The notes beneath the pieces are model-generated. The model ran no database searches, had not been told where the DNA came from, and worked only from the letters and a program-made list of their open reading frames with translations. Shown one piece after another: positions 2,515-39,600 of a stretch of 64,000 nucleotides of DNA. The DNA comes from Octopus vulgaris (Eukaryota). The DNA lies in contig OX597833.1 of the NCBI GenBank assembly GCA_951406725.2, forward strand, positions 49,042,001-49,106,000, given 5' to 3'. The number at the start of each line of letters is the position of its first letter. The first letter of the stretch is position 1. The position numbers and the translations under genes are program-made.

Positions 2515-4014
2515 TCATCATCATCATTTAACGCCCGTTTTCCATGCTGGCATGGGTTGGACAGTTCAACTAGGGTATGGGAAGCCAGAAGGCTGCACCA
2601 GGCCCTGTCTGATCTGGCAGTGTTTCTACAGCTGGATGCCCTTCCAAACGCCAACCACTCTGTGAGTGTAGTGGGTGCTTTTTACGTGCCAGACGAGGCT
2701 GGCAAACGGGCACGATCGGATGGTGCTTTTATGTGCCATCGGCACGGGGACCAAGCGAAGCTGGCAACGGCCACGATCAGATGGTGCTTTTTACTTGCCA
2801 CGGCACAGAGGCCAGTTGGGCGGCGCTGGCTACGGCCACATTCGGATGATTCTCTTATGTGCCACCGGCACTGGTATCACAGCTACAAATTCCATCGATG
2901 TTGATAGATTATGATTTTGATTTTCACTTGCCTCAAGTGGAGTTTTGTGTCCCAAGAAGGAAAGGAATACATAAGTGGGCTGGCTACATCCCCAGTGTAG
3001 GCCACGGGATTATGGCCTCACTTGTCCTGCCGGGTCTTCTCACGCACAGCATACTTCCATAGGTCTCGGTCTCTAGTCATTTCCTCGGTGAGACCTAAAG
3101 TTTCAAGGTCGTGCTTCACCACCTCGTCCCAGGTTTTCCTGGGTCTACCTCCTCCACAGGTTCCCTTAACTGCTAGGGTGTGGCACTTTTTCACACAACT
3201 ATCTTCATCCATTCTCGCCACATGACCATACCAGCGCAAACGTCTCTCTTGCACACCACAACTGATGCTTCTTAGGTCCAACTTTTCTCTCAAATTACTT
3301 ACACTCTGTCGAGTATGAACACTGACATTACACATCCATCGGAGCATACTGGCTTAATTTCTTGCAAGCTTACGCATATCCTCAGCAGTCACGGCCCATG
3401 TTTCACTGTCATGTAGCATAGCTGTTCGTACACTTGTGTCATGCAATCTGCCTTTTACTCTGAGCGAGAGGTATTTTGTCACCAGCAGAGGTAAGAGCTC
3501 TCTGAACTTTGCCCAGGCTATTCTTACTCTAGCAGTTACACTTTCAGCGCACCCGCCCCCGCTGCTGACTAGGTCACCTAGGTAACGGAAGCTATCAACT
3601 ATTTCTAGTTTTTCTCCCTGGAATGTGGCGGAAGATGGTCTCTGCGTATTTTCAGTGTTTATTACTACCGAGCATCTGCCACATACAAAAACTATTTTCC
3701 TAGTTAGCCTTCCTTTGACATTGCTGAACCTGTTATGTGTCCATAGCTTACACTTGGTGCAGGGCCATCTACCTGAGGGTGTTTGTGATTTGTCTACCTT
3801 CCTACTTATTAGAACTTTGGTTTTAGCTAGGTTGACTTGTAGGCCCTTCGATTCTAATCCTTGCTTCCACACCTGAAACCTCTCCTCCAGTTCTGATAGT
3901 GACTCAGCAATTAGGGCAAGGTCATCAGCATAGAGGAGCTCCCAGGGGCAACCTGTCTTGAATTCCTCCGTTATTGCTTGGAGGACTATGATAAATAGGA
4001 GGGGGCTGAGGACT
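2515..4014 (-). mobile_element. 5'-truncated RTE-clade LINE (RT C-terminal region, 3' UTR, (GAT)n tail), frameshifted
   Basis: - strand reads VLSPLLFIIVLQAITEEFKTGCPWELLYADDLAL, then FRYLG...RIAWAKFRELLPLL and [12 protein letters not shown]...GRPRKTW. This is followed by a 3' UTR with ~60-bp GTGGCACGTAAAAAGCACC repeats and a (GAT)n tail at 2515-2526. Confidence 0.93.
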
Positions 4015-4039
4015 ATATATATATATATATATATATATA

Positions 4040-5251
4040 TCAGGTCATCCCATAAGTTCTGTCTGAATTCAACTTTTAAAAAATTTAATGAAATTTCATA
4101 TTAATTTAGAATCTCTAATGGAATTGAAAATTATTGTTTTGCATTTGTGTACATTTAAACAAATTAAATATTATTTTGCAGACTAATAGAATCAAAATTT
4201 CATTGATTAAAACCATTCTAACATGGAAGTATCCAAAGAACATTTAAGGCACATAATGCTTTATGAGTAGAAAAAAATAAACTCTGCTGCCGAAGCGACT
4301 CGAAACATACACTCCCTTTATGGGAAAGAATGCTTGAATGAAAGAACTTGCAGAAGATGTTTTGCAAATTTCAGAAGTGGTGATTTCAGCCTTGAAGATG
4401 ATCATACAGGACCTCCAGTTGAGTTTGATGATAAGTCCTTGAGGCATTACTTGAAGAAAATCCTGCATTATAAGTTGAAGAATTGGCAATAAAGCTTAGT
4501 TCAAAGCATACAACTGTTCATCATCATCTTCAATAACTTGGAAAGGCTCCTAAACTTGGAAAATGGGTACCTCATGAATTGTCTGAAAGCAACTGCAAAT
4601 CCCGTGTTGACATCTGCTCTTCTCTCCATTCTTGCAAACTCATTTCACCTGTTTTGGATAGACTTGTGACTGGTAATGAAAAATGGATCTTCTATCGAAA
4701 TGTTAAACGTCGTAAACAGTGGCTTGGTAAAAGGGAAAAAGCTGAACCATAACCGAGAACGGAACTTCATGGAAAAAAGGTTCTACTCTCTATCTGGTGG
4801 GATTGCAAAGGAGTAATTCACTTTGAATTGTTACCACCTAATGCAACAATCAATGCTCAAGTCTACTGTCAGCAATTAGAGCATTTGAATCAAGTAGTGA
4901 ATCGAAAATCATATCACAGAAGATCGAAGAGATTGGTTGGGAAAAAATTCCTCATCCACCTTATTCTCCCGACCTTGCTCCTTCAGACTACCATTTGTTT
5001 CGTAGTTTACAGAGTCATTTGGGAGACATAACTTTCGCAAGCCAGGAGGAGGTCGAAACTGACATTTCAGAGTTATCGCTTTGAAACCAAAAGAGTTTTA
5101 CATTGATGGGATTAAAAAGCTTGTAAATAGATGGAAGGAAGTCATAGATAATCTGGGAAAGTACATTGATGATTAAATTTCAATTAAATATAACATTTGA
5201 TCACTTGTTTTCTTTATTCAAAATTTGGACAGAATTTATGCGATGACCTGA
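4040..5251 (+). mobile_element. Defective mariner transposon with TIRs in a (TA)n target
   Basis: TIRs TCAGGTCATCCCATAAGTTCTGTC / GACAGAATTTATGCGATGACCTGA. Transposase motifs WVPHELS, VTGNEKWIFY, IWWDCKGVIHFELLP and PHPPYSPDLAPSDYHLF. Stops, frameshifts and loss of the HDNA segment. Confidence 0.93.
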
Positions 5252-5313: not shown

Positions 5314-5872
5314 TAATGCAAATAAGAAAATGGAGAAACAAATTCATCTCGTTCATTAACTTATGGATATTATAATTTTACATTATTAATTAATTATACA
5401 AATGAGAACATCAAATTCAGACAAAAGATTCTATAAATCAATAGGTAATATAATAATAAAAATAATACAAATGCATATTTTAAAAGTCATATTATAAATT
5501 TTGAAATTCATAAACTGCTTCTTACACCTGTTTCAGCCTATGGTCAAAAGTCAATCCAACTTATATTGCCTATAGATGTCAGTATATTATGGTTGTAAAT
5601 ATACTGACATCTATAGGCAATATAAGTTGGATTGACTTTTGACCATAGGCTGAAACAGGTGTAAGAAGCAGTTTATGAATTCAATAATTTATAATATGAC
5701 TTTTAAAATATGTATTTGTATTGTTTTTATTATTATATTACCTATTGATTTATATAATGTTTTGTTTGCTTTTGAGGTTCTCATTTGTATAATTAATAAA
5801 TAATGTAAAATTGTAATATCCATATGTTAATGAACGAGATGAATTTGTTTCTCCATTTTCTTATTTGTATTA
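5314..5872. repeat. Long imperfect inverted repeat (~275-bp arms, centre ~5593)
   Basis: Left arm TAATGCAAATAAGAAAATGGAG...GATGTCAGTATATT is mirrored by AATATACTGACATC...CTCCATTTTCTTATTTGTATTA. Confidence 0.92.
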
Positions 5873-19132: not shown

Positions 19133-20164
19133 TTAATATACAGAAAAACAAAGGAAACTGTATACAAAATGTGTGTGATTCAGATTTAGGTGAAAGAAAA
19201 AAAAAGGGGGGAGTATAATTAGTGAGGGACGTGTGTTAAATAGGGTGGGACAGATAAAGCGTGGAGAAGAAAAGGTAAAGAGAAAGTAACGACCCTAGTA
19301 TCGATCTATTGCATTTCAATTTGTTTTAGGATTTTCTCAATAAAGCCAAGAGAAAATAATGTTTTATAAACACATTCTACCAGTATACGAAGTTTAAAAG
19401 TGTTTAGTTACGCGGAAATTATTTTTAAAAACTGCCGGTCAAACCGAAAAGATCCTTAATATACAGAAAAAGTTCTAATTCCGCCGAGGTCGACTTTGCC
19501 TTTCATCCTTTCGAGGTCGATAAATTAAGTACCAGTTATGCACAAGAGATCGATATAATCGACTTAATCCGTTTGTCTGTCCTTATTTGTACCCCCTGTG
19601 TTTAGCCCCTTGTGGGTTGTAAAGAAATAGGTATTTCGTCTGCCGCTACATTCTGAGTTTAAATTCCGCCGAGGTCGACTTTGCCTTTCATCCTTTCGGG
19701 GTCGATAAATTAAGTACCAGTTACGCACTGGAGATCGATATAATCGACTTAACCCGTTTGTCTGTCCTTGTTTGTACCCCCTGTGTTTAGCCCCTTGTGG
19801 GTAGTAAAGAAATAGGTATTTCGTCTGCCGCTACATTCTGAGTTCAAATTCCACTGAGGTCTACTTTGCCTTTCATCCTTTCGGGGTCGATAAATTAAGT
19901 ACCAGTTACGCTCCGGAGATCGATATAATCGACTTAATCCGTTTGTCTGTCCTTGTTTGTACCTCTCTGTGCTTAGCCCCTTGTGGGTAGTTAAGAAATA
20001 AATATACAGAAAAACAAAGGAAACTGTATACAAAATGTGAGTGATTTAGATTTAGGTGAAAGGGGGGAAAAAAGGGGGTATAATTAGTGAGGGACGTGTG
20101 GGAAATAGGGTGGGACAGATAAAGCGTGGAGAAGAAGAAAAGGTAAAAGGAAAGTATTAGAGAG

Positions 20165-20297: not shown

Positions 20298-20920
20298 GTT
20301 TAGTGTTTTGTTTCACATTTTCCTGTTTGTATTTGTGTAATGTTAGAGTTTTTGCTTTTAATGGAAAAAATAGCGATCTATGAAAAAAAAACATTCTTCT
20401 AATTCGATGCTGTGTTTGCAATATTGCGATCTTCATGTGTTGCGCCGCTGCTGGAATATATACATATTTATATGAACGAACATATTGTGTTTCATTTACA
20501 AAATAGATTTTTCAGAAAATGACGAAGGAACAAAAAAAAAAAAGAAACCCCTCCCCTCCTAAAAAAAAAAGACAAAAACTCCCAGTAAATATAAATGATT
20601 AAGATAGAGGCATGCACACTTCATTCAATTATAGACCATGCCTGGGGTAATATGCTTTTCCCTTTAAATTTTCTTAGAAGAGAAAGTAAAAAAACAAACA
20701 AGGAATTTTGTGTTAGCGGATGAGTAGTAAGTCATTTTTATTATAATTATCACTTTATATAACTGTGGCACTGAGCATTTTTAAATTCAGGAACAATATA
20801 CGACTGATATATATTAATAGAATGGACACCACTATGCGTTATAGGTGTACGTTTGAACGAGTAAAATTCATAATCAGTATCGATGAGTACATTACTCACA
20901 CACAAACACACATATGTGAT

Positions 20921-21963
20921 ATTCTGTCACAAATAAAAGGTTCGACTGTTTATATTTTTAACCTGTGGCTAGACTATATTCCTCAAAGTCTGGGCGATTA
21001 TTTTATACTTTGTTTAATTAAAGATTAATTAAAGATAATTAGTATACCGATCTGAAAGTAATTCTGTCGCAAATAAAAGGTCCAATTGTTTATATTTTTA
21101 ACCTGTGGCTAGACTATATTCCTCAAAGACTGGACGATTATTTTATACTTTGTTTAATTAAAGATAATTAATATACCGATCTGAAAGTAATTCTGTCTCA
21201 AATAAAAGGTTCAACTGTTTATATTTTTAACCTGTGGCTAGGCTATATTCCTCAAAGACTGGACGATTATTTTATACTTTGTTTAATTAAAGATAATTAG
21301 TATACCGATCTGAAAGTAATTCTGTCACAAATAAAAGGTTCGACTGTTTATATTTTTAACCTGTGGCTAAACTATATTCCTCAAAGACTGGACGATTATT
21401 TTATACCTTGTTTAATTAAAGATAATTAGTATACCGATCTGAAAGTAAATCTGTCACAAATAAAAGGTCCAACTGTTTATATTTTTAACCTGTGGCTAAA
21501 CTATATTCCTCAAAGTCTGGGCGAATGTTTTATACTTTATTTAATTAAAGCTAATTAGTATACCGATCTGGAAGTAATTCTGTCACAAATAAAAGGTTCG
21601 ACTGTTTATATTTTTAACCTGTGGCTATGCTATATTCCGCAAAGACTGGGCGATTATTTTATACTTTATTTAATTAAAGATAATTAATATACCGATCTGA
21701 AAGTAATTCTGTCACAAATAAAAGGTCCAACTGTTTATATTTTTAACCTGTGGATAGACTATATTCCTCAAAGACTGGACGATTATTTTATACCTTGTTT
21801 AATTAAAGGTAATTAGTATACCGATCTGAAAGTAATTCTGTCACAAATAAAAGGTTCGACTGTTTATATTTTTAACCTGTGGCTAGACTATATTCCTCAA
21901 AGTCTGGACGATTATTTTATACTTTGTTTAATTAAAGATAATTTGTATACCGATCTGAAAGTA
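20921..21963. repeat. Tandem array of 8 copies of a 129-bp unit
   Basis: Units start at 20921, 21061, 21190, 21319, 21448, 21577, 21706 and 21835 (ATTCTGTCACAAATAAAAGG...CCGATCTGAAAGTA); the first unit has an 11-bp internal duplication. Confidence 0.95.
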
Positions 21964-23343
21964 AATTGTTTATATAACTTAATATTACTGATAATGATTC
22001 ATAAATGACATCAACTATTATTCATTCATATCCAAATATCACAGATTCTGCTGTTAACATTATTATTATTCTTTTCTTCTGACCTCCTTTATTGTTTTTC
22101 TAAAGTTCAAAGTGATTTTCAGTTTTAATGTTTGCATATAAGATATGATCGGAACAGGTGTCAGTTTATTATGATTTTATTGTGCAACACCAAGTCTTAC
22201 TTTACAATTTCCATTCTGTTTATAGTCTAAAACATATGACAGTATCTCAGCGGCCTTTATTTCTTTTTACAGATTATTGTAGGATATTCGATAATTTCTA
22301 ATATCATCAGCTTCGTTTCTCAAGTATTTACCGTAGTTTGCCAGTGTAAAGTAATCATTGTAATAAATAATCAGGTATGAAACGAGCAATAAATAGTTTG
22401 ATATTATAATGACACCAGATTAGATATGCATGTGGAAATAAACATAGTGGCTGGACAGGCATTATTAGTATTAATTATTATTATTATTATTAGTTGTTGT
22501 AATTTCGTTTTGGAATAGTGTGTTGTTTTTGTTTAAATCTTAGTTACGTCTAAGATATTTTATAAGTGATATATAAACCGCCCCAGGTAAATGTATTTTA
22601 TCGACCCCGTGAAGATGTCAGACTAAGATGCGATCAGCCAAGGGCAAAACTCTGAAGACTGTCATCGTCATCGTTATCTAACGTCCACTTTTCCACGCTT
22701 TCATGGGTCAGAGGGAGTTTGAGGTAGATTTTCTATAGCCGGATGCCCTTCCTGTAGCTAACCCTCATCTGTTTCCAAGCACTCACGCCCAGACATGTTT
22801 TTCACGTAAGAGTGAAAACGAACAATCTCGCTCATATGACGATGACGCTCATTTACAATCATCACGTGATGTCTAGACAAGGGTACACACACACACACAC
22901 ACACACACACATTTATGTATATGTGTGTGTGTATTCAGATTCCATCTACTAAAGCCACTCACAAGGCTTTGGTTGACCTGGGGCTGTAGTAGACACCTGG
23001 CTACAGTGCTGCTCAAAGGAACTAAACCCAGCATCACATAATTAGAAAGGAAGCTTCTCAAACTTATCGCCACACCTATACCTCATGTATGTCATCATCA
23101 TCATTATCGTTTGACGCCCACTTTCTGTGCTGGCAAACCAGAAAACTGCCAAACTCTTGTGTCTGCTTTGGGCAACTTCTATGGCTTGATATCCTTCCTA
23201 ACGCCTATATCATCATCATCATCATTTAACGTCTGCTTTCCATGCTAGCATGGGTTGGACGTATGACTGAGGGCTGGCAAACCAGATGGCTGCACCATGT
23301 TTCAATCTTGATCTGGCAGAGTTTCTACAGTTGGATGCCCTTC

Positions 23344-25596: not shown

Positions 25597-26699
25597 TGTT
25601 CAGCTCATTATTTCATGTGAGCACAGGATGGATGAATGGTTAGAATGTTTGCTTCGCAAAATATGAGCATCTGGGTCTCACCCCCACTGCATGGTCTAAT
25701 GTAATTTTCTAAAGTATGCCTTGTGTCATTGCATACCTTGTGAAGGAAGTAGCGTAAAGTGGTAACTGTATAGAAGCCTTCATCATCATCATCATCATTT
25801 AATGTCCATTATCCATGCTGGCATGGGTTGGACAGTTTGAATCAGAGCTGATATAGCTGGGGAGCTGCATCAGATTCTAGTCTGATTTGACATGGTTTCT
25901 ACTGCATTTGCCTGACTATGAAAATATTATCGGTAGTGCTTCTTCCCTGAACAAAGCCAAGCTGCATTTTGTCTAGCCTAATTCTGCTCCTAATTAATTG
26001 AACTATAACACTCTCTCTTTTTGTAGTTTTCATCACTTGGTCCAGGAGTTTGATGCCTCTATAATTGCTTTTATCTAAATCATCACCCTTACCCTTGTAG
26101 CAGCTATCAATTATGCTGCTATGCCAGTCACTGAGATTTACACCTTTCTGAATGACCTGATTAACTATGCGGGTGACTAGCCCATATCCTACCTTACTAG
26201 ATATTTTGAGGCTGCATGGGAAGGGAGGCTGATCAGGGTATGTTGTAGTGTCCTTGTTTTTCTTTCTTTTTCTCTTGTCTGCAAGGGTGGTTCTGTGAGT
26301 ATCTTCAAAGGAGGCTGTTGCCTGGAGGAAATGAGATGCCAGGTTCCACTGTTAGTAGCAAGAACAGACTGCTGGTAGTGATCAAAATGGCAGGCACTGA
26401 GAGATTTCTTTAGGGAGTCCTTGTACTTCTTCTTTGGTACTATCATGATGACCAGGGGTGAGTTTGTCGTACAACATAATCTTGGGAAGTTGATGATCCT
26501 CTATCCTAATGATCTGTCTGCCTAGTGTAGCTGTGTCTTCAGCAGAGTTGCTTTGATGTGGTGACCTTTGCCTGCTCTAAATCCTTGATGTTAGTCACAA
26601 AGTTAGTTACTCCAGTGGATGCTGGAGGATGATGCCAAGGCAGTGCTGATGGCATTGCTTAAGAAATCATAGGTGGTGCTAATAAATGACCCACAATTC

Positions 26700-30214: not shown

Positions 30215-30819
30215 ATTAAATTTAAATGTTGAAGTGAATCTAATGGTTTTGTGTGTTTCTTAAATGGCTTATAAACACCTTCCACGCTGCAATTGTTTTT
30301 GTTCCAGCACACAATCTCAGATCAAGTCACTTCCTATGCAAGTACATCTCTGTAATATATCCTTTCGGGGGGCCGATTAAATAAGTACCAGTTACACACT
30401 GGAATCGATATAATCGACTTAATCCATTTGTCTGTCCTTGTTTGTCCCCTGTGTGTGTGTAGGCCCTTGTGGGCAGTAACGAAATAAGAAACGTTAGCAT
30501 GCCAGGCGAAATGCTTAGCGGTATTTCGTCTGCTGCTACGTTCTGAGTTCAAATTCTGCCGAAGTCGACTTTGCCTTTCATCCTTTTGGGGTTGATAAAT
30601 TAAGTACCAGTTACGCACTGGGATCAATGTAATCGACTTAATCCCTTTGTTTGTCCTTGTTTGTCCCCTCTATGTTTAGCCCATTGTGGGTAATAAAGAA
30701 ATAAGAATGGTTGGCATTAAGAAGGGCAGCCACCTCAGCTTACCACCCCTGGTCAAACCGTCCAACCCATGCCAGCATGAACAATGGATGTTAAATGATG
30801 ATGATAATGAAAGGGAATT

Positions 30820-33282: not shown

Positions 33283-34139
33283 CATCATCATTGTTTAGCA
33301 TCCGTTTTCCATGCTAGCATGGGTTGGACGGTTCAACATACACACACATATATAATCTGCATACATATCTATATTGTGTTGAAATTGTGATGATAACTAA
33401 TGAGGGGTCAGTGTATCTATATTCTTTTTTTTTCCTGCCTTCCATATGTTCCTTTGTTATTCTCCTGTGCCACCTTTTATTGCCATACATACATCTAATT
33501 GTATCTATATAAAGAGACTCTATAAACATATATGTTTGTGAACCAATTTAATTTCTGTATAAGAACACATGTTCCATAACCTTGTAGCTTGATCCAATGT
33601 GTGTGCATGCATGTGTGTGTGTGTGTAATTGCTCTATTTATTTAAAATAATGGTATAATAAAATATAGGTTTGATTTTATTGATTGACAGGTACTAGCAC
33701 ACAGCAGGTGTGTCTATGAACATGTGTACACCTTTCTATCTTTCCCTGTACGTGAGTGTGTGTGTGTGCACGTGTGCACACGCATAACACCATAAACACT
33801 AATATATTAATTTATTAAAGTGTGTCAGCTCAGGTAAAGATGGATTTTGTCAGCATATGCATTCCCTGTGCATTTTGTTGGTGGGAGTTGTGCATAAAGC
33901 CATTTCATAATGTGGATGTGAGTGTGTTGATGTTTTTATGTTATGTCTCCTTATGTCTTCTGACTGAAATAGCTCAGCAAACAAGTGTCTGATGAAATAA
34001 GTGCAAAACTTAAGTAAGGATTGGGTGTGCCATGATCTCCTAAACTCTTGAAAATGGTGCCCCAATGTGGCTGCACTCCAGTGACTGAAACAGTAAATGT
34101 GTGTGCATGTGTGTATGTATATATATGTATATATATATA

Positions 34140-34199
<60 letters not shown>

Positions 34200-34363
34200 A
34201 TTGTATACTGTCAATCTAACATGAAGGTGACAGTAGGGGGTTACACCACCACTGTTTAGCCCTAGGAAGCATCGACGCCTCCTGATGGCTTTGACACATT
34301 TTTCCTGTGTCCTTATATACATTTACGAAGGGGAGACAAACACCCCCAGCAGCCAGGCCTGCA

Positions 34364-34410
34364 TCTAGAGACACGCATGTTTCAGGATCATTGTCCATCA
34401 TCGGTCTAGA
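34364..34410 (-). ncRNA. Type I hammerhead-like motif with GUC cleavage triplet
   Basis: TCTAGA | CCGATGA | T GGA-CAATGA-TCC T | GAA ACAT-GC-GTGT C | TCTAGA, inside element 34227-34561 bounded by a perfect 18-bp inverted repeat. Confidence 0.72.
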
Positions 34411-36264
34411 GTAGCAGAGGCCCGTCAGCTGTTGATATCTGCCTCGACTCGCAAATCTATATATCTAATTTCAGTGAAGTTTATTCACTGATTACCAAAA
34501 TCAGAAATATTAAATTTCTAAATCTCTCATAGAGATATGTACGGTAACCCCCTACTGTCACGTATATATATATATATATATATGTATAATCATCATCATC
34601 ATTTAATGTTTGTTGTCTATGCTGGTATGGGTTGGACTAATATATCATCATCATCATCCTCATCATCATCGTTTAACGTCTGCTTTCCATGCTGGCATGT
34701 GTTGGACGGTTTGGCTGAAGACTGGCGAGCCAGATGGCTGAACCAGGCTCCAATCTGATCTGGTAGAGTTTCTACAGCTGGATGCCCTTCCTAATGCCAT
34801 CCACTCCAAGAGTGTAGTGGGTGCTTTTACATGCCACCGGTATGAGGGCTAGTCAGGTGGTATATGGAGTTGGAAATGCATGAAATAAATTAATTAAAGA
34901 CACTCTTAGACAAACTCTGCTCTGCATTTATGTTCAGTGTTGATGAGGATGATGATGAGAGTGATGATGATAGACAAAGGGAAAAACCTTTAAGAATTTC
35001 TGCGTTTCAAATGAGTTAAGATTGTGAGACATCCTTACATATGCTGTTAAAATTTGCATATAAAATTTATTTTTACAGGACAAAATGACTTAACACTGTT
35101 GTATAAGTACTCTGTAGATATGGCTTATATAGTGGAATTGGAGGTAATGGAAAACTGAATTGATAAGTGTAAATTATTATTGATTGGAACTAAGGTGGCA
35201 AGCTGGGATCTGACAAAATGCTTTGGAATTTTTTCCAGCTTTACATTCTTAGTTTAAATTGCACTGTGGTTGACTTTCCCTTTCATCCTTTTGAAGTCAA
35301 TGAAATAAGTACCAGTCAAGCACTGGGGTTGAGGTAATTGACTATTGTGACCCTGCCTCCAAATTGCTGGTCTTAAGCCAGTAAATGGAAAAAGTTATTA
35401 ACTAATGCTTGTGTGGATGAAAGAAAAAAAAAAGGGTTCAGTTTTCCATTACTTCAAATTCTATTACTTTATAAACCAAGCCTAGCATACTTCACCTGCC
35501 AGATAGACCCATGCATATGATTGATTTTTATGACTCAGTAAAGCCATCACCAACAAAACTCCAAAGCTATCATGAACCTTTTCCTGGCAAAAATATATAT
35601 TAACATATATATAGGCGCAGGAGTGGCTGTGTGGTAAAGTAGCTTGCTTACCGACCACATGGTTCCGGGTTCAGTCCCATTGTGTGACACCTTGGGCAAG
35701 AGTCTTCTACTATAGCCTCAGCTTGACCAAAGCCTTGTGAGTGGATTTGGTAGATGGAAACTGAAAGAAACCCGGCATATATATATATGTATGTGTGTGC
35801 ATATGTTTGTGAGTCTGTTTGTCCCCTACCCCCAACATTGCTGGACAACCGATGCTGGTGTGTTTACGTCCCCATAACTTAGCAGTTCAGCAAAAGAATC
35901 CAATAGAATAAGTACTAGGCTTACAAAGAATAAGTCCTGGAGTTGACTTGTTCGAGTAAAAGGCGGTGCTCCAGCATGGCTGCAGTCAAATGACTGAAAC
36001 AAATAAAAGAATAAAAGACTATACACATATATTTTTATATGGATATATGTAACTGGCACTCTGTCAGTTAAGATTACAAGAGTTCCAGTTGATCTGATCA
36101 ATGGAACAGCCTGATTATGAAATTGACATGCAAGTGGCTGACCACTCCACAGGCATGTGTACTCTTAATGTAATTCTCAGAGAGATTCAGCATGACACTG
36201 AATGTGACAAGACCGGCCCTTTGAAATATAGGTGCTACTCATTTTTGGCTGCTGAGTGGACAGG

Positions 36265-36664
36265 AGCAGTCTGAAATAAAGTGTCTTTCTCAAGGACACA
36301 CTGTAGCAGTCTGAAATAAAGTGTCTTTCTCAAGGACACACTGTAGCAGTCTGAAATAAAGTGTCTTTCTCAAGGACACACTGTAGCAGTCTGAAATAAA
36401 GTGTCTTTCTCAAGGACACACTGTAGCACTCTGAAATAAAGTGTCTTTCTCAAGGACACACTGTAGCAGTCTGAAATAAAGTGTCTTTCTCAAGGACACA
36501 CTGTAGCAGTCTGAAATAAAGTGTCTTTCTCAAGGACACACTGTAGCACTCTGAAATAAAGTGTCTTTCTCAAGGACACACTGTAGCACTCTGAAATAAA
36601 GTGTCTTTCTCAAGGACACACTGTAGCACTCTGAAATAAAGTGTCTTTCTCAAGGACACACTGT
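36265..36664. repeat. Minisatellite, 10 x 40 bp, expanded inside a SINE
   Basis: Unit AGCA(G/C)TCTGAAATAAAGTGTCTTTCTCAAGGACACACTGT repeated without spacers. Confidence 0.95.
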
Positions 36665-39600
36665 GCCGTCAGGAGCTGAATACCCTGACCACTCAGCCAT
36701 GTGCCTTCACATACATACAAATGTCCAAGCTGGCTGAAGCGTTAGCATGCCGGGCGAAATGCTTAGCGGTATTTCGTCTGCTGTTACGTTCTGAGTTCAA
36801 ATTCCGCCGAGGTCGACTTAGCCTTTCATCCTTTTGTGGTTAATTAAATAAGCACCAGTTACGCACTGGGGTCGATGTAATCGACCTAATCCCTTTGTCC
36901 TTGTTTGTCCCCTCTATGTTTATCTCCTTGTGGGCAATAAAGAAATAACATATGTCCAACCCATGTGAACAAGGAAAATGGACATTAAATTATGTTGATG
37001 ATGATGATGATGAAATAAATCTACATGTCTACATGCATACATTTATCCTAAATATGTAGACCTATATGCACAGTGATATATGCATGAGTGCATGTGTGTG
37101 TGTCATCAGACAGTTTTGTTTAGAAACAAAACTGTCCAACGGATAGGAACGTGAAACTCTGAGTAACAGTTTTTGTGATATTTTTGCTGCTTTTTGATAA
37201 AGCATATTACTTACTCTACCTCTGGTGTTCGAGTACTATTTTTTCCCACCTTGTTTCACATTTATGTGCTTACTCTAGTATGTATATGTGTGCGTGTATA
37301 TATATATATATAAAACCATATGCTTGCACTTATATAGATATATATATGTCAGTCAGGGGCCATGCATACATATAGATTTATACATACATGTAGCACTTCT
37401 ATGCATAAATGTGCACATAAATACACACACACGTAAACATATATACTTACATGTAGATATATGAACATACTTACTGAAATATACTATATAAAAATGGGTG
37501 TAAAGAGTGATACATGTACATGTGAATGCTATAATCAAAATATATGTATAGCACATGCATAGCAACGGTACAGATATAAAGATAGAAAAATAAAAATAGA
37601 TCCAGCCGGTGTGTACTTATCTTGGTGAATTATTCTATGAGAATTGACAGGGGTGATAGGATAGGGTGGAGATTGTTTATATAAGTCATGATAGGTATAG
37701 ATTGTTTATAAAATCTGATATTAATGACTAAAATGGACAGACAGCTCAGAGATAAGGTTATAGTGAAACCTGTACAAATCTGCTAAAAAACATACTGTTG
37801 TTTATTTGTAAGTGTTATGTATGTTAAGAAACTTGCTTCCCAACCACATGGTTCCAGGTTCAGTCCCACTGCGTGGCACCTTAGACTAGTGTCTTCTATA
37901 TAGCCTTGGGCCTATCAAGGCCTTGTAAGTGGATTGAGTAGATGGAAACTGAAAGAAGCCTGTCATATATGTGTGTGTGTGTGTGTGTATGTCCATCACT
38001 GCTTGACAATTGGTGTTGGTGTGTTTACATCCCTGTAACTTAGAAGTCTGGCAAAACAGACTGATAGAATAAGTACTAAGCTTAAGAAATAAGTCCTGGG
38101 GTTGATTTGTTCAACTAAAACCCTTCAAGGTGGTGCTTTGCAACCTCATGGTTTCAGGTTCAGTCCCACTGTGCAGCACCCTGCTTTGTGTCATCTGTTA
38201 TAGTCCCAGGCCAATCAATGGCTTGTTAGTGAATTTGGTAGATAGAAACTGTGTAGAAGCCTGTCGTGTGTGTACCCCTACCTCCACTTGAGATCTGGGG
38301 TTTGGTTTAGTTACATCCATGTAGCTTAGAGGTTCAGCATAAGTGATCAATAAAATAAGTACTAGACTTAGATACTGGGGTCTGTTTATTTGTAAAAACC
38401 CTTCAAGATGATGCTTCAGCATGGCCACAGTCTGTTGACTAATGCAAGTAAAGGATGTCTCTAACGAGCATGCATTTGAGAAACGTCAAGGTGAAGGGAT
38501 GTAAAGATGCCAGGCCAAAAGACAAGAATACAAAAGGAAAAAAAAAATGGAAGGTATAAGGACAGAAATGGCAATAGAAGTCAGACAAGCCCTTATAAGA
38601 ACACAAAACATTATCCACAAAAGTTCAGAGTCTTTACTTCTTTGTAGAGGACATGGAGACAGAAACTCCCACCTCAAATTCAGTAGGTGTAATGTTTTTT
38701 TTAGGATGCATTTCTCTGACAGGCAAAGAAAATATTTAGATGCAATAATCAGTCAGTTGATATTGTAATTAAGGTTCCCTTTCTTTTTCAAATCCCAGAT
38801 GTACTTGGGAAAATATTCTCACACCTATTTTATCTTCATTCCTGAAGGGATATGTATGCTATTTGTATCTTGTTTTGAAGGTGTTCTCTATGAAGTTTAT
38901 ATAGCTTTTTATACTATTATAGTTTCTAATGGAAACTCTAGAACGGTATATGTCACACCTCAGAAACCATTTACCATCTAGTTCTAGTGGACTGGTGTTA
39001 CGCTTGGGACAATAATTGTATTATGGTAGCAATTCTTGTGTGTTTGTTCATTGTAATTTCATCTCAATTTTTTGTTGAAGAATAGTAAAATTATGCTTAC
39101 AACTGTAATTCACCCAATATTCCGATCGAAAATTTTATGAAACTAATTTGTATAAGAAAAGTATACACTTATTAGGTTTAGAAAAGAATTGGCAATATTA
39201 GAGCTAACAAAGAAGGTGGTGAGTATGTAGAATCATTAGCATGCTGGGCAAAATGTTTAGCGGCATTTCATCATCTTTACATTCTGTGTTCAAATTCCAT
39301 CAGGGTCGAGTTTGCTTTTCATCTTTTCAGGGTCGGTAAAATAAGTACCAATTGAGCACTGGGGTTGATGTAATTGACTTAGCCCCTTCCCCATAACTGC
39401 TGGTGTTGTGCCAAAATTTGAAACTGTTATTAGAGCTGACATTGAAACCAAATGGTGGGTTCTACCATATAAACTTTCTTTATCAGGTATTTTTAGACTT
39501 AGAAAGTAACTGTCTGGCTATGGTATTGTATTTCAGCTGAATCCACTTCAGCTTAGCTTTAGGTTTCATAAAATCATGCAACACAATTAAATGTTTCCTT

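What the first reader, a model, noticed from the sequence alone, without database searches (positions are those of the whole stretch)
34227..34561. 335-bp element with perfect 18-bp terminal inverted repeats and an internal GUC hammerhead
GTGACAGTAGGGGGTTAC (34227-34244) mirrors GTAACCCCCTACTGTCAC (34544-34561), and the element sits between TA tracts. The - strand motif at 34364-34410 has a self-complementary TCTAGA stem I, a CCGAUGA core, a near-palindromic ACATGCGTGT stem III and the optimal GUC triplet. It looks like a MITE but carries a ribozyme, so it may be a Penelope-type partial inversion that mimics TIRs (inference).
Basis: partly seen in the sequence, partly recalled or inferred. Interest (0 to 1): 0.72.

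Follow-up and report, generated by a model that had tools for sequence, protein, structure and literature searches.

The report
Penelope-type retrozyme copy mimicking a MITE
This is one of at least hundreds of copies of a small protein-less repeat with a predicted self-cutting RNA motif, and its transposon-like inverted ends are a one-off inversion, likely left when a Penelope-type enzyme copied the RNA into both strands of a DNA cut.

Summary
The 18-bp inverted repeat and the minus-strand hammerhead motif are real, but this is not a MITE. It is one copy (about 34195-34563) of a dispersed ~365-bp tandem unit without an ORF. The inverted end occurs once in the genome. Other inverted copies have arms of 20-291 bp, and one point mutation cut this repeat from 20 to 18 bp. 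A 32-bp stretch outside the left 'TIR' belongs to the element, like a Penelope 'tail'. Copies end at two fixed sites in TA-rich DNA, with variable 9-14-bp duplications. In 22 of 23 inverted copies the two arms end at different sites, and in 10 of 22 neither arm contains the other, so both arms were likely primed on RNA. U4C is the family majority (170 C : 21 U), and the stems covary across sister families. Cleavage is untested and the autonomous partner was not identified. Verdict: a new member of the animal non-LTR retrozymes with a Penelope insertion footprint. The scan found such families, the two-armed pattern and a Tx1-like LINE targeting them before, on other DNA of this genome.

The parts
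34195..34563 (-). Whole insertion: one near-complete unit of the ~365-bp repeat with a short inverted arm at its 5' end; both ends are blurred by 2-3 nt against the TA tracts
34195..34545 (-). Main arm, unit positions 1-357, ending at the common 3' site B (..CATTCTAT|TA tract); 12 differences from the column majority of 28 copies
34544..34563 (+). Short inverted arm (20 bp), ending at the rare site A (..CTGTCAC/GT|); joined to the main arm through a 2-nt overlap (AC); junction unique in the genome
34227..34244 (-).
34195..34226 (-).
34364..34410 (-). Type I hammerhead motif: 6-bp stem I, C3-G8, variant C4 (34403), U10.1-U11.1 mismatch (34397), 3-bp stem II, palindromic stem III; predicted cut between 34370 and 34369
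   Evidence: cleavage not tested
34206..34235 (-). 8-bp hairpin between end sites A and B; inner part of a predicted stem-loop around the priming sites
   Evidence: sequence; fold of the L013 copy
34420..34436 (-). Empty target site: in other copies a LINE and its ORF1-only derivative insert here with a ~15-17-bp duplication
34118..34194 (.). Left (TA)n tract, target sequence
34563..34583 (.). Right (TA)n tract, target sequence; a duplication cannot be read in pure TA

Best explanation
This is a monomeric copy of a dispersed, non-coding ~365-bp hammerhead repeat (a non-LTR retrozyme), likely inserted by a Penelope-like RT/GIY-YIG enzyme that primed reverse transcription from both nicked strands of a TA tract. 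Shown: the family, its tandem unit, fixed 3' end sites, variable inverted arms, a one-sided tail, variable duplications, TA targets and a conserved hammerhead fold. Inferred: tandem copies are transcribed; paired hammerheads cut through the palindromic stem III, probably slowly because of C4 and the open 10.1-11.1 pair; the RNA (multimer or circle) is bound in trans by a Penelope-like protein; each nicked strand starts cDNA at a different fixed site of the RNA, and the two cDNAs join head to head at a short overlap. Here one cDNA ran ~350 nt from site B and the other only 20 nt from site A, which gives the false TIR. This single copy is probably a dead end: it has one hammerhead and no tandem partner.
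For: Family: 89 matches from 40 scored of 2394 candidates, tandem period 364-366. Ends: 76 of 86 arm ends in 55 non-redundant loci fall at two sites 55 nt apart (B 40, C 36). Inverted arms are 20-291 bp (22 copies). The junction is unique. Duplications of 9-14 bp (including 1-5 nt shared with the element end) occur in 9 of 24 two-ended insertions; 11 lie in TA tracts and cannot be read; 4 show none. The two arms end at different sites in 22 of 23 assignable inversions (20 B+C, 2 A+B, 1 C+C; p=1.5e-5; tally by hand). Arms are not nested in 10 of 22, which excludes simple fold-back for those. Arms resemble each other more than the median other locus in 19 of 21. Hammerhead: 89.4% of cells paired, 9 of 14 pairs with two-sided changes including C3-G8/U3-A8, slid controls 23-47%. 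A young RT+GIY-YIG family with 781-aa open frames is in the same genome, with a hammerhead, two 3' ends ~38 nt apart and TA targets. Tails, inverted arms, AT targets, two RT start sites and extension of both strands are described for Penelope-like elements (PMC11167929, PMC8557442, PMC3846280).
Against: No autonomous element shares sequence with the unit: blastn found 0 of 37 GIY-YIG loci; the profile found only a sister retrozyme copy and one weak hit, and only the query's own locus among 30 Poseidon-like loci. In the window copy the short arm is nested in the long arm, so fold-back is not excluded for this copy. Site A is rare (this copy and L030). The 10.1-11.1 pair is unpaired in 17 of 20 sequences, the hammerhead fold is not the minimum-energy fold of the monomer (-4.0 vs -7.7 kcal/mol), U4C considerably lowers activity in vitro (PMC3088659), and 8 of 9 Xenopus retrozyme dimers tested did not cleave (10.64898/2026.07.22.740005). 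Two of 21 inversions have arms no more alike than unrelated loci (L015, L062). Arm similarity may reflect which subfamily was active at the time, or later gene conversion.
Confidence: 0.85

Rival explanations
1. A MITE (non-autonomous DNA transposon) with 18-bp TIRs that captured a hammerhead.
For: Perfect 18-bp inverted repeat, no ORF, short length, TA context.
Against: The junction occurs once in the genome. The 18-mer is internal in other copies. Arms vary from 20 to 291 bp. Duplications vary in length. The element extends 32 bp past the 'TIR', and the repeat's edge is set by a point mutation. Tandem arrays exist.
Confidence: 0.01
2. The unit is the pseudo-LTR of a rare or lost autonomous Penelope-like element, and the copies are 5'-truncated insertions of it, not a self-propagating retrozyme.
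For: Same footprint as autonomous elements; pLTR-retrozyme homology is shown in Xenopus (10.64898/2026.07.22.740005); only a small part of the family was inspected (55 loci; 40 of 2394 candidates scored).
Against: Whole units follow each other head to tail without coding DNA (L015, L019, L081). Sequence past site C continues into the unit's own start in tandem copies. No locus showed a shared Penelope-type ORF joined to the unit; nearby Penelope-like frames at L065 and L067 are not shared between loci.
Confidence: 0.08
3. Same family, but the inverted arm of this copy came from fold-back or template switching of a single cDNA, or from later repair, and not from second-strand priming on RNA.
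For: The short arm is nested in the long arm here and in 12 of 22 inversions; 2-nt overlap at the junction; self-priming was proposed for such inversions (PMC3846280, passages).
Against: 10 of 22 inversions are not nested (9 if L070, whose junction lies in an AT run, is set aside). Short arms end at fixed sites, and site A recurs in L030, again paired with B.
Confidence: 0.15
4. The hammerhead of this subfamily is catalytically dead and is carried only as part of the RNA that the Penelope-like protein recognises.
For: C4 is the majority state plus an open 10.1-11.1 pair; PAc hammerhead mutants still insert in vitro (PMC11167929).
Against: Natural U4C and U10.1-U11.1 variants keep some activity (PMC3088659). 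U4 copies outnumber G5A copies 21 to 3 whereas other CpG sites give about 52:36 (p=0.003), which fits selection on the core. This is confounded: sister families have U4, 3 of the 21 carry a sister-type stem II end, and misplaces 5 of 83 segments by one base.
Confidence: 0.3

Closest known systems
Animal non-LTR retrozymes (Cervera and de la Pena 2020, PMC7229834; Li, Clavereau and Pollet 2026, 10.64898/2026.07.22.740005)
   Same: Short non-coding tandem unit (365 bp; mussel units 350-390 bp), one type I hammerhead per unit, monomers to multimers dispersed in the genome, co-occurring Penelope-like elements.
   Different: Majority core is CCGAUGA with an open 10.1-11.1 pair. Insertion structure (inverted arms, fixed end sites, tails, duplications) is resolved here and was not described in the parts of those papers that I read. 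Circular RNA and cleavage are not shown.
Endonuclease-containing Penelope-like elements: Penelope/Poseidon, Neptune, Naiad (PMC8557442, PMC3846280, PMC11167929, PMC4209133)
   Same: 5'-truncated tandem and inverted arms, tail at one end only, AT/TA targets, variable duplications, hammerhead with palindromic stem III, two 3' end sites.
   Different: No RT/GIY-YIG ORF. The usual tail is 55 nt (B to C), against 30-40 nt in the papers; this copy has the 35-nt A-to-B tail. No homologous autonomous pLTR was found.
MITEs (non-autonomous DNA transposons; defining features recalled)
   Same: Short, no ORF, inverted ends in this one copy.
   Different: Ends are not shared between copies, duplication length is not fixed, and tandem arrays and an RNA motif are present.
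L1 twin-priming inversions (recalled)
   Same: Head-to-head inversion made by priming from both target strands.
   Different: Here both arms start at fixed 3' sites and overlap on the template; in L1 twin priming the second primer anneals internally and the two cDNAs do not overlap.

Membership tests
Non-LTR retrozyme | Short tandem units without protein-coding capacity | tested here: met
   Period 364-366 in L015 and L019; dimer in L081; no ORF of 150 aa or more over the element.
Non-LTR retrozyme | Type I hammerhead in each unit | tested here: met
   Motif in all three units of L015 and both of L019; covariation. Variant core; Rfam does not score it.
Non-LTR retrozyme | Dispersed multicopy family | tested here: met
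   194 exact motif matches genome-wide; 2394 candidates.
Non-LTR retrozyme | Self-cleavage of the transcript | not testable with these tools
   Needs a cleavage assay.
Non-LTR retrozyme | Expression as linear and circular RNA | not testable with these tools
   Only assembled contigs were available; they cannot show strand, ends or circles.
Penelope-like element (autonomous) | ORF with RT and GIY-YIG endonuclease | tested here: not met
   None in the unit, and none contiguous and shared in the loci inspected.
Penelope-type mobilisation | Variable inverted 5' arm | tested here: met
   20-291 bp in 22 copies.
Penelope-type mobilisation | Tail at one end only / two fixed 3' end sites | tested here: met
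   76 of 86 ends at B or C; different sites in 22 of 23 inversions.
Penelope-type mobilisation | AT/TA targets with variable duplications | tested here: met
   9-14 bp in 9 of 24 insertions, 11 in TA tracts, 4 with none.
Penelope-type mobilisation | Autonomous partner with a homologous pLTR or 3' region | tested here: inconclusive
   A young RT+GIY-YIG family has the same footprint but no detectable homology; only 37 GIY-YIG and 30 Poseidon-like loci were examined.
MITE | Fixed TIRs at both termini shared by copies | tested here: not met
   Junction unique; 18-mer internal elsewhere.
MITE | Fixed-length target duplication | tested here: not met
   Variable, 9-14 bp.

The most novel reading that the evidence does not exclude
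A Penelope-like RT dimer primes both strands of one DNA cut from two different, adjacent fixed sites (A+B or B+C) of the same retrozyme RNA, so every inverted insertion records the geometry of the dimer; and this lineage spread after fixing a slowed hammerhead (C4, open 10.1-11.1 pair) that keeps its RNA template intact, while a target-specific LINE family homes just upstream of that hammerhead in several diverged families.
Probability: 0.35. Interest if true: 0.62.

Novelty: new member of a known kind. Interest (0 to 1): 0.4.

Why it matters
For annotation, it shows how a Penelope-type inversion can pass for a MITE: TIR-based finders would misclassify such copies. For mechanism, mobilisation of animal retrozymes by Penelope-like enzymes has been argued from co-occurrence and pLTR homology. 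This family adds an insertion footprint, and a rule (the two arms end at different fixed sites and are often not nested) that the existing in vitro Penelope assay can test directly. A successful family with a U4C core also offers a natural test of whether fast self-cleavage is needed for spread.

Tried and rejected
Rfam found no hammerhead on the element; the 150 listed window hits were microsatellite-type matches below the gathering score. Expression: no RNA holder listed on record. Four runs only guessed to be RNA hold family contigs, but contigs cannot show strand, ends or circles, so this is not used as evidence. Laying four other runs on the window copy could not test the junction because reads were cut at the repeat from 34554. 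Autonomous partner: no homology in 37 GIY-YIG loci or 30 Poseidon-like loci; the Poseidon-like copies are old (68-80% aa identity, mostly with stops). A short CCAC-CGTA motif after the first end site of both the unit and the 781-aa family looked like a shared signal, but sister retrozyme families with the same end sites lack it, so it was rejected. RNA-editing footprint: rare changes are mostly G>A (42) and C>T (32); A>G 21 against T>C 12 is not convincing. The 781-aa protein has no match among solved structures. A sequence look-up in earlier findings gave nothing. L1-style non-overlapping twin priming was rejected because the arms overlap on the unit.

Full report
Observation. The 18-mers at 34227-34244 and 34544-34561 are exact reverse complements. 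The minus strand holds a 47-nt type I hammerhead motif at 34410-34364: a 6-bp stem I, core CCGAUGA, stem II GGA/UCC flanked by U and U, GAAA, a stem III that is a 10-bp palindrome with G-U pairs (self-duplex -12.5 kcal/mol), and GUC. Rfam does not score it.

The family. A search of the own genome scored 40 of 2394 candidates and returned 89 matches, the best 40 at 92-98% identity apart from the window itself, nearly all starting at query base 17, after the inverted end. Adjacent matches give a tandem unit of 364-366 bp. I analysed 55 non-redundant loci: 28 of 30 from the similarity search and 27 of 33 from a motif search and longer stretches; 8 were dropped as overlaps or duplicates. These loci lean towards young copies that hold the hammerhead. 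Of 86 arm ends, 40 fall at site B and 36 at site C, 55 nt further on; 2 were called at site A, 35 nt before B, and 8 elsewhere. By eye, L024's A call is an internal deletion and L030's short arm does end at A. Most ends run into TA or AT-rich DNA. The window's main arm ends at B, so 34195-34226 is part of the element, and its short arm ends at A.

MITE or inversion. Short arms measure 20-291 bp, median 186, in 22 inversions; seven other inverted loci were left out because an end was eroded, interrupted or complex (L009, L018, L019, L024, L026, L066, L087). The window's junction occurs once in 2.8 Gb. A G>C change at 34226 shortens a 20-bp repeat to 18. Among 24 two-ended insertions, 9 show 9-14-bp duplications, 11 lie in TA tracts and 4 show none. 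This refutes a MITE and fits Penelope-like elements, for which inverted 5'-truncated arms, a 30-40-bp tail often at one end, and TA targets are described (PMC8557442 and PMC3846280, passages).

How the inversions form. In 23 inversions with assignable ends (the 22 plus the outer ends of L026) the pairs are B+C 20, A+B 2, C+C 1, B+B 0; 22 of 23 differ, p=1.5e-5 against independent draws. In 10 of 22 neither arm is contained in the other, so a cDNA folding back on itself cannot explain those. The arms are more alike than the median other locus in 19 of 21, and at most two other loci match better in 14 of 21; L015 and L062 are exceptions. The anole Penelope-like protein nicks and extends both strands, starts at two internal sites that match the tail, and is predicted to be a dimer (PMC11167929, parts 1-2 of 4 read). 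The simplest reading, an inference, is priming from both nicks at two different sites. The window copy is nested, so fold-back is not excluded for it.

The ribozyme. Exact genome counts are C4 170, U4 21, G5A 3, with 0 for reversed controls. U4C is thus the family state. Sister families at about 75-80% identity have the canonical U4 or a U3-A8 core. I aligned the window motif with 19 motifs located through a neighbouring LINE end (those of 29 such loci that showed a hammerhead, without one tandem duplicate). Of 263 cells 89.4% pair, 9 of 14 pairs show two-sided changes, and slid controls give 23-47%; related sequences inflate the shuffle control. Against activity: pair 10.1-11.1 is open in 17 of 20, and the monomer's hammerhead fold is 3.7 kcal/mol above its minimum-energy fold. 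U4C lowers activity in vitro but allowed viroid infectivity, and a U10.1-U11.1 start of stem II is known (PMC3088659, passages). Metazoan Penelope hammerheads cleave weakly and as dimers (PMC4209133, parts 1-2 of 4). Only 1 of 9 Xenopus dimers cleaved (10.64898/2026.07.22.740005, parts 1-3 of 5). The 21:3 excess of U4 over G5A, against about 52:36 at other CpG sites, hints at selection but is confounded by U4 ancestry. I put activity of a dimer at about 70%.

The partner. The genome holds a young RT+GIY-YIG family with many 781-aa open frames (148 matches from 150 scored of 6136 candidates; domains). It has a hammerhead in its terminal repeat, two 3' ends ~38 nt apart, TA targets, and one inverted copy with one long and one short end (L043). 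It shares no detectable sequence with the unit. It is a plausible but unproven source of enzyme; its clade was not determined.

A second element. Several copies are interrupted about 20-30 nt before the hammerhead core by a LINE (zinc knuckle, AP endonuclease, RT; L093) or a 1.6-kb ORF1-only derivative with a 17-bp duplication (L091). Of the 30 best loci for the derivative's 3' end, 21 are followed by a hammerhead unit of this or a sister family (including the query's locus and one tandem duplicate), 2 by another such LINE, and 7 by neither. That exceeds the 20% criterion for target specificity used in PMC4494074 (passages). The label Tx1-like is recalled, not tested by a tree. The site is empty in the window copy.

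Novelty. Non-LTR retrozymes, their proposed mobilisation by Penelope-like elements, tails and inversions are published (PMC7229834, passages, and the papers above). Searches listed no paper on this family, on arm-end pairing, or on a LINE targeting hammerhead repeats; the library lacks most subscription journals, Repbase and Dfam were not available, and I read no supplements, where octopus-type families might be listed. Earlier notes of this scan report the same kind of family, the two-armed pattern and the LINE on other DNA of this genome; they are unchecked, and I had reached these readings before opening them, except the single-template test. The taxon (octopus-like) is recalled from the window's repeats and from those notes.

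Verdict. A real hammerhead-bearing retrozyme copy with a Penelope-type inversion; not a MITE. New member of a known kind, interest 0.4.

Noticed in passing
L091:3219-4836, L092, L093:1744-7200, L101-L130; empty site at window 34420-34436: A LINE (Tx1-like, label recalled) and its ORF1-only derivative insert at one site just 5' of the hammerhead in several diverged retrozyme families: 21 of 30 loci, plus 2 in front of another such LINE.
   Followed up: partly
L094:3745-6087, L095, L096, L100, L035-L060: Young abundant Penelope-like family with a 781-aa RT+GIY-YIG frame, an upstream second frame, a U3-A8 hammerhead and two 3' ends ~38 nt apart.
   Followed up: partly
L109, L111, L115, L127, L128 (U4 core); L049, L104, L113, L126 (U3-A8 core): Sister retrozyme families; those read to their end stop at sites equivalent to B or C.
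   Followed up: partly
L030:2407-2453, L047:2680-2726, L120:2508-2554: An unrelated minimal hammerhead family without stem III; 2 of 3 copies also have C4.
   Followed up: no
L015:952-2214: One tandem array mixes subfamilies: units 1-2 and unit 3 differ by about 12% and have different stem II sequences, which suggests template switching or a mixed multimer template.
   Followed up: no
L024: The hairpin between sites A and B is deleted through a 2-nt overlap, and the copy still ends at B.
   Followed up: no
window 34587-34860: Right of the element lies a (CAT)n-led repeat, started twice, that looks like the reversed 3' end of an RTE-type LINE (recalled); RT-like fragments occur at 3354-4100 and 25899-26351.
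   Followed up: no
window 20896-22098, 36180-36739, 19471-20025: Tandem arrays with periods of 129, 40 and 185 bp.
   Followed up: no
window 29036, 35625, 42699, 43319, 54936, 59759, 61338 and 30369-30703, 36728, 45426, 47596, 55878: Two dispersed SINE-like families with 7-13 copies each in 64 kb.
   Followed up: no
window 5554-5632: Near-perfect 79-bp hairpin palindrome, scored on both strands by a microRNA model below its gathering score; origin not examined.
   Followed up: no
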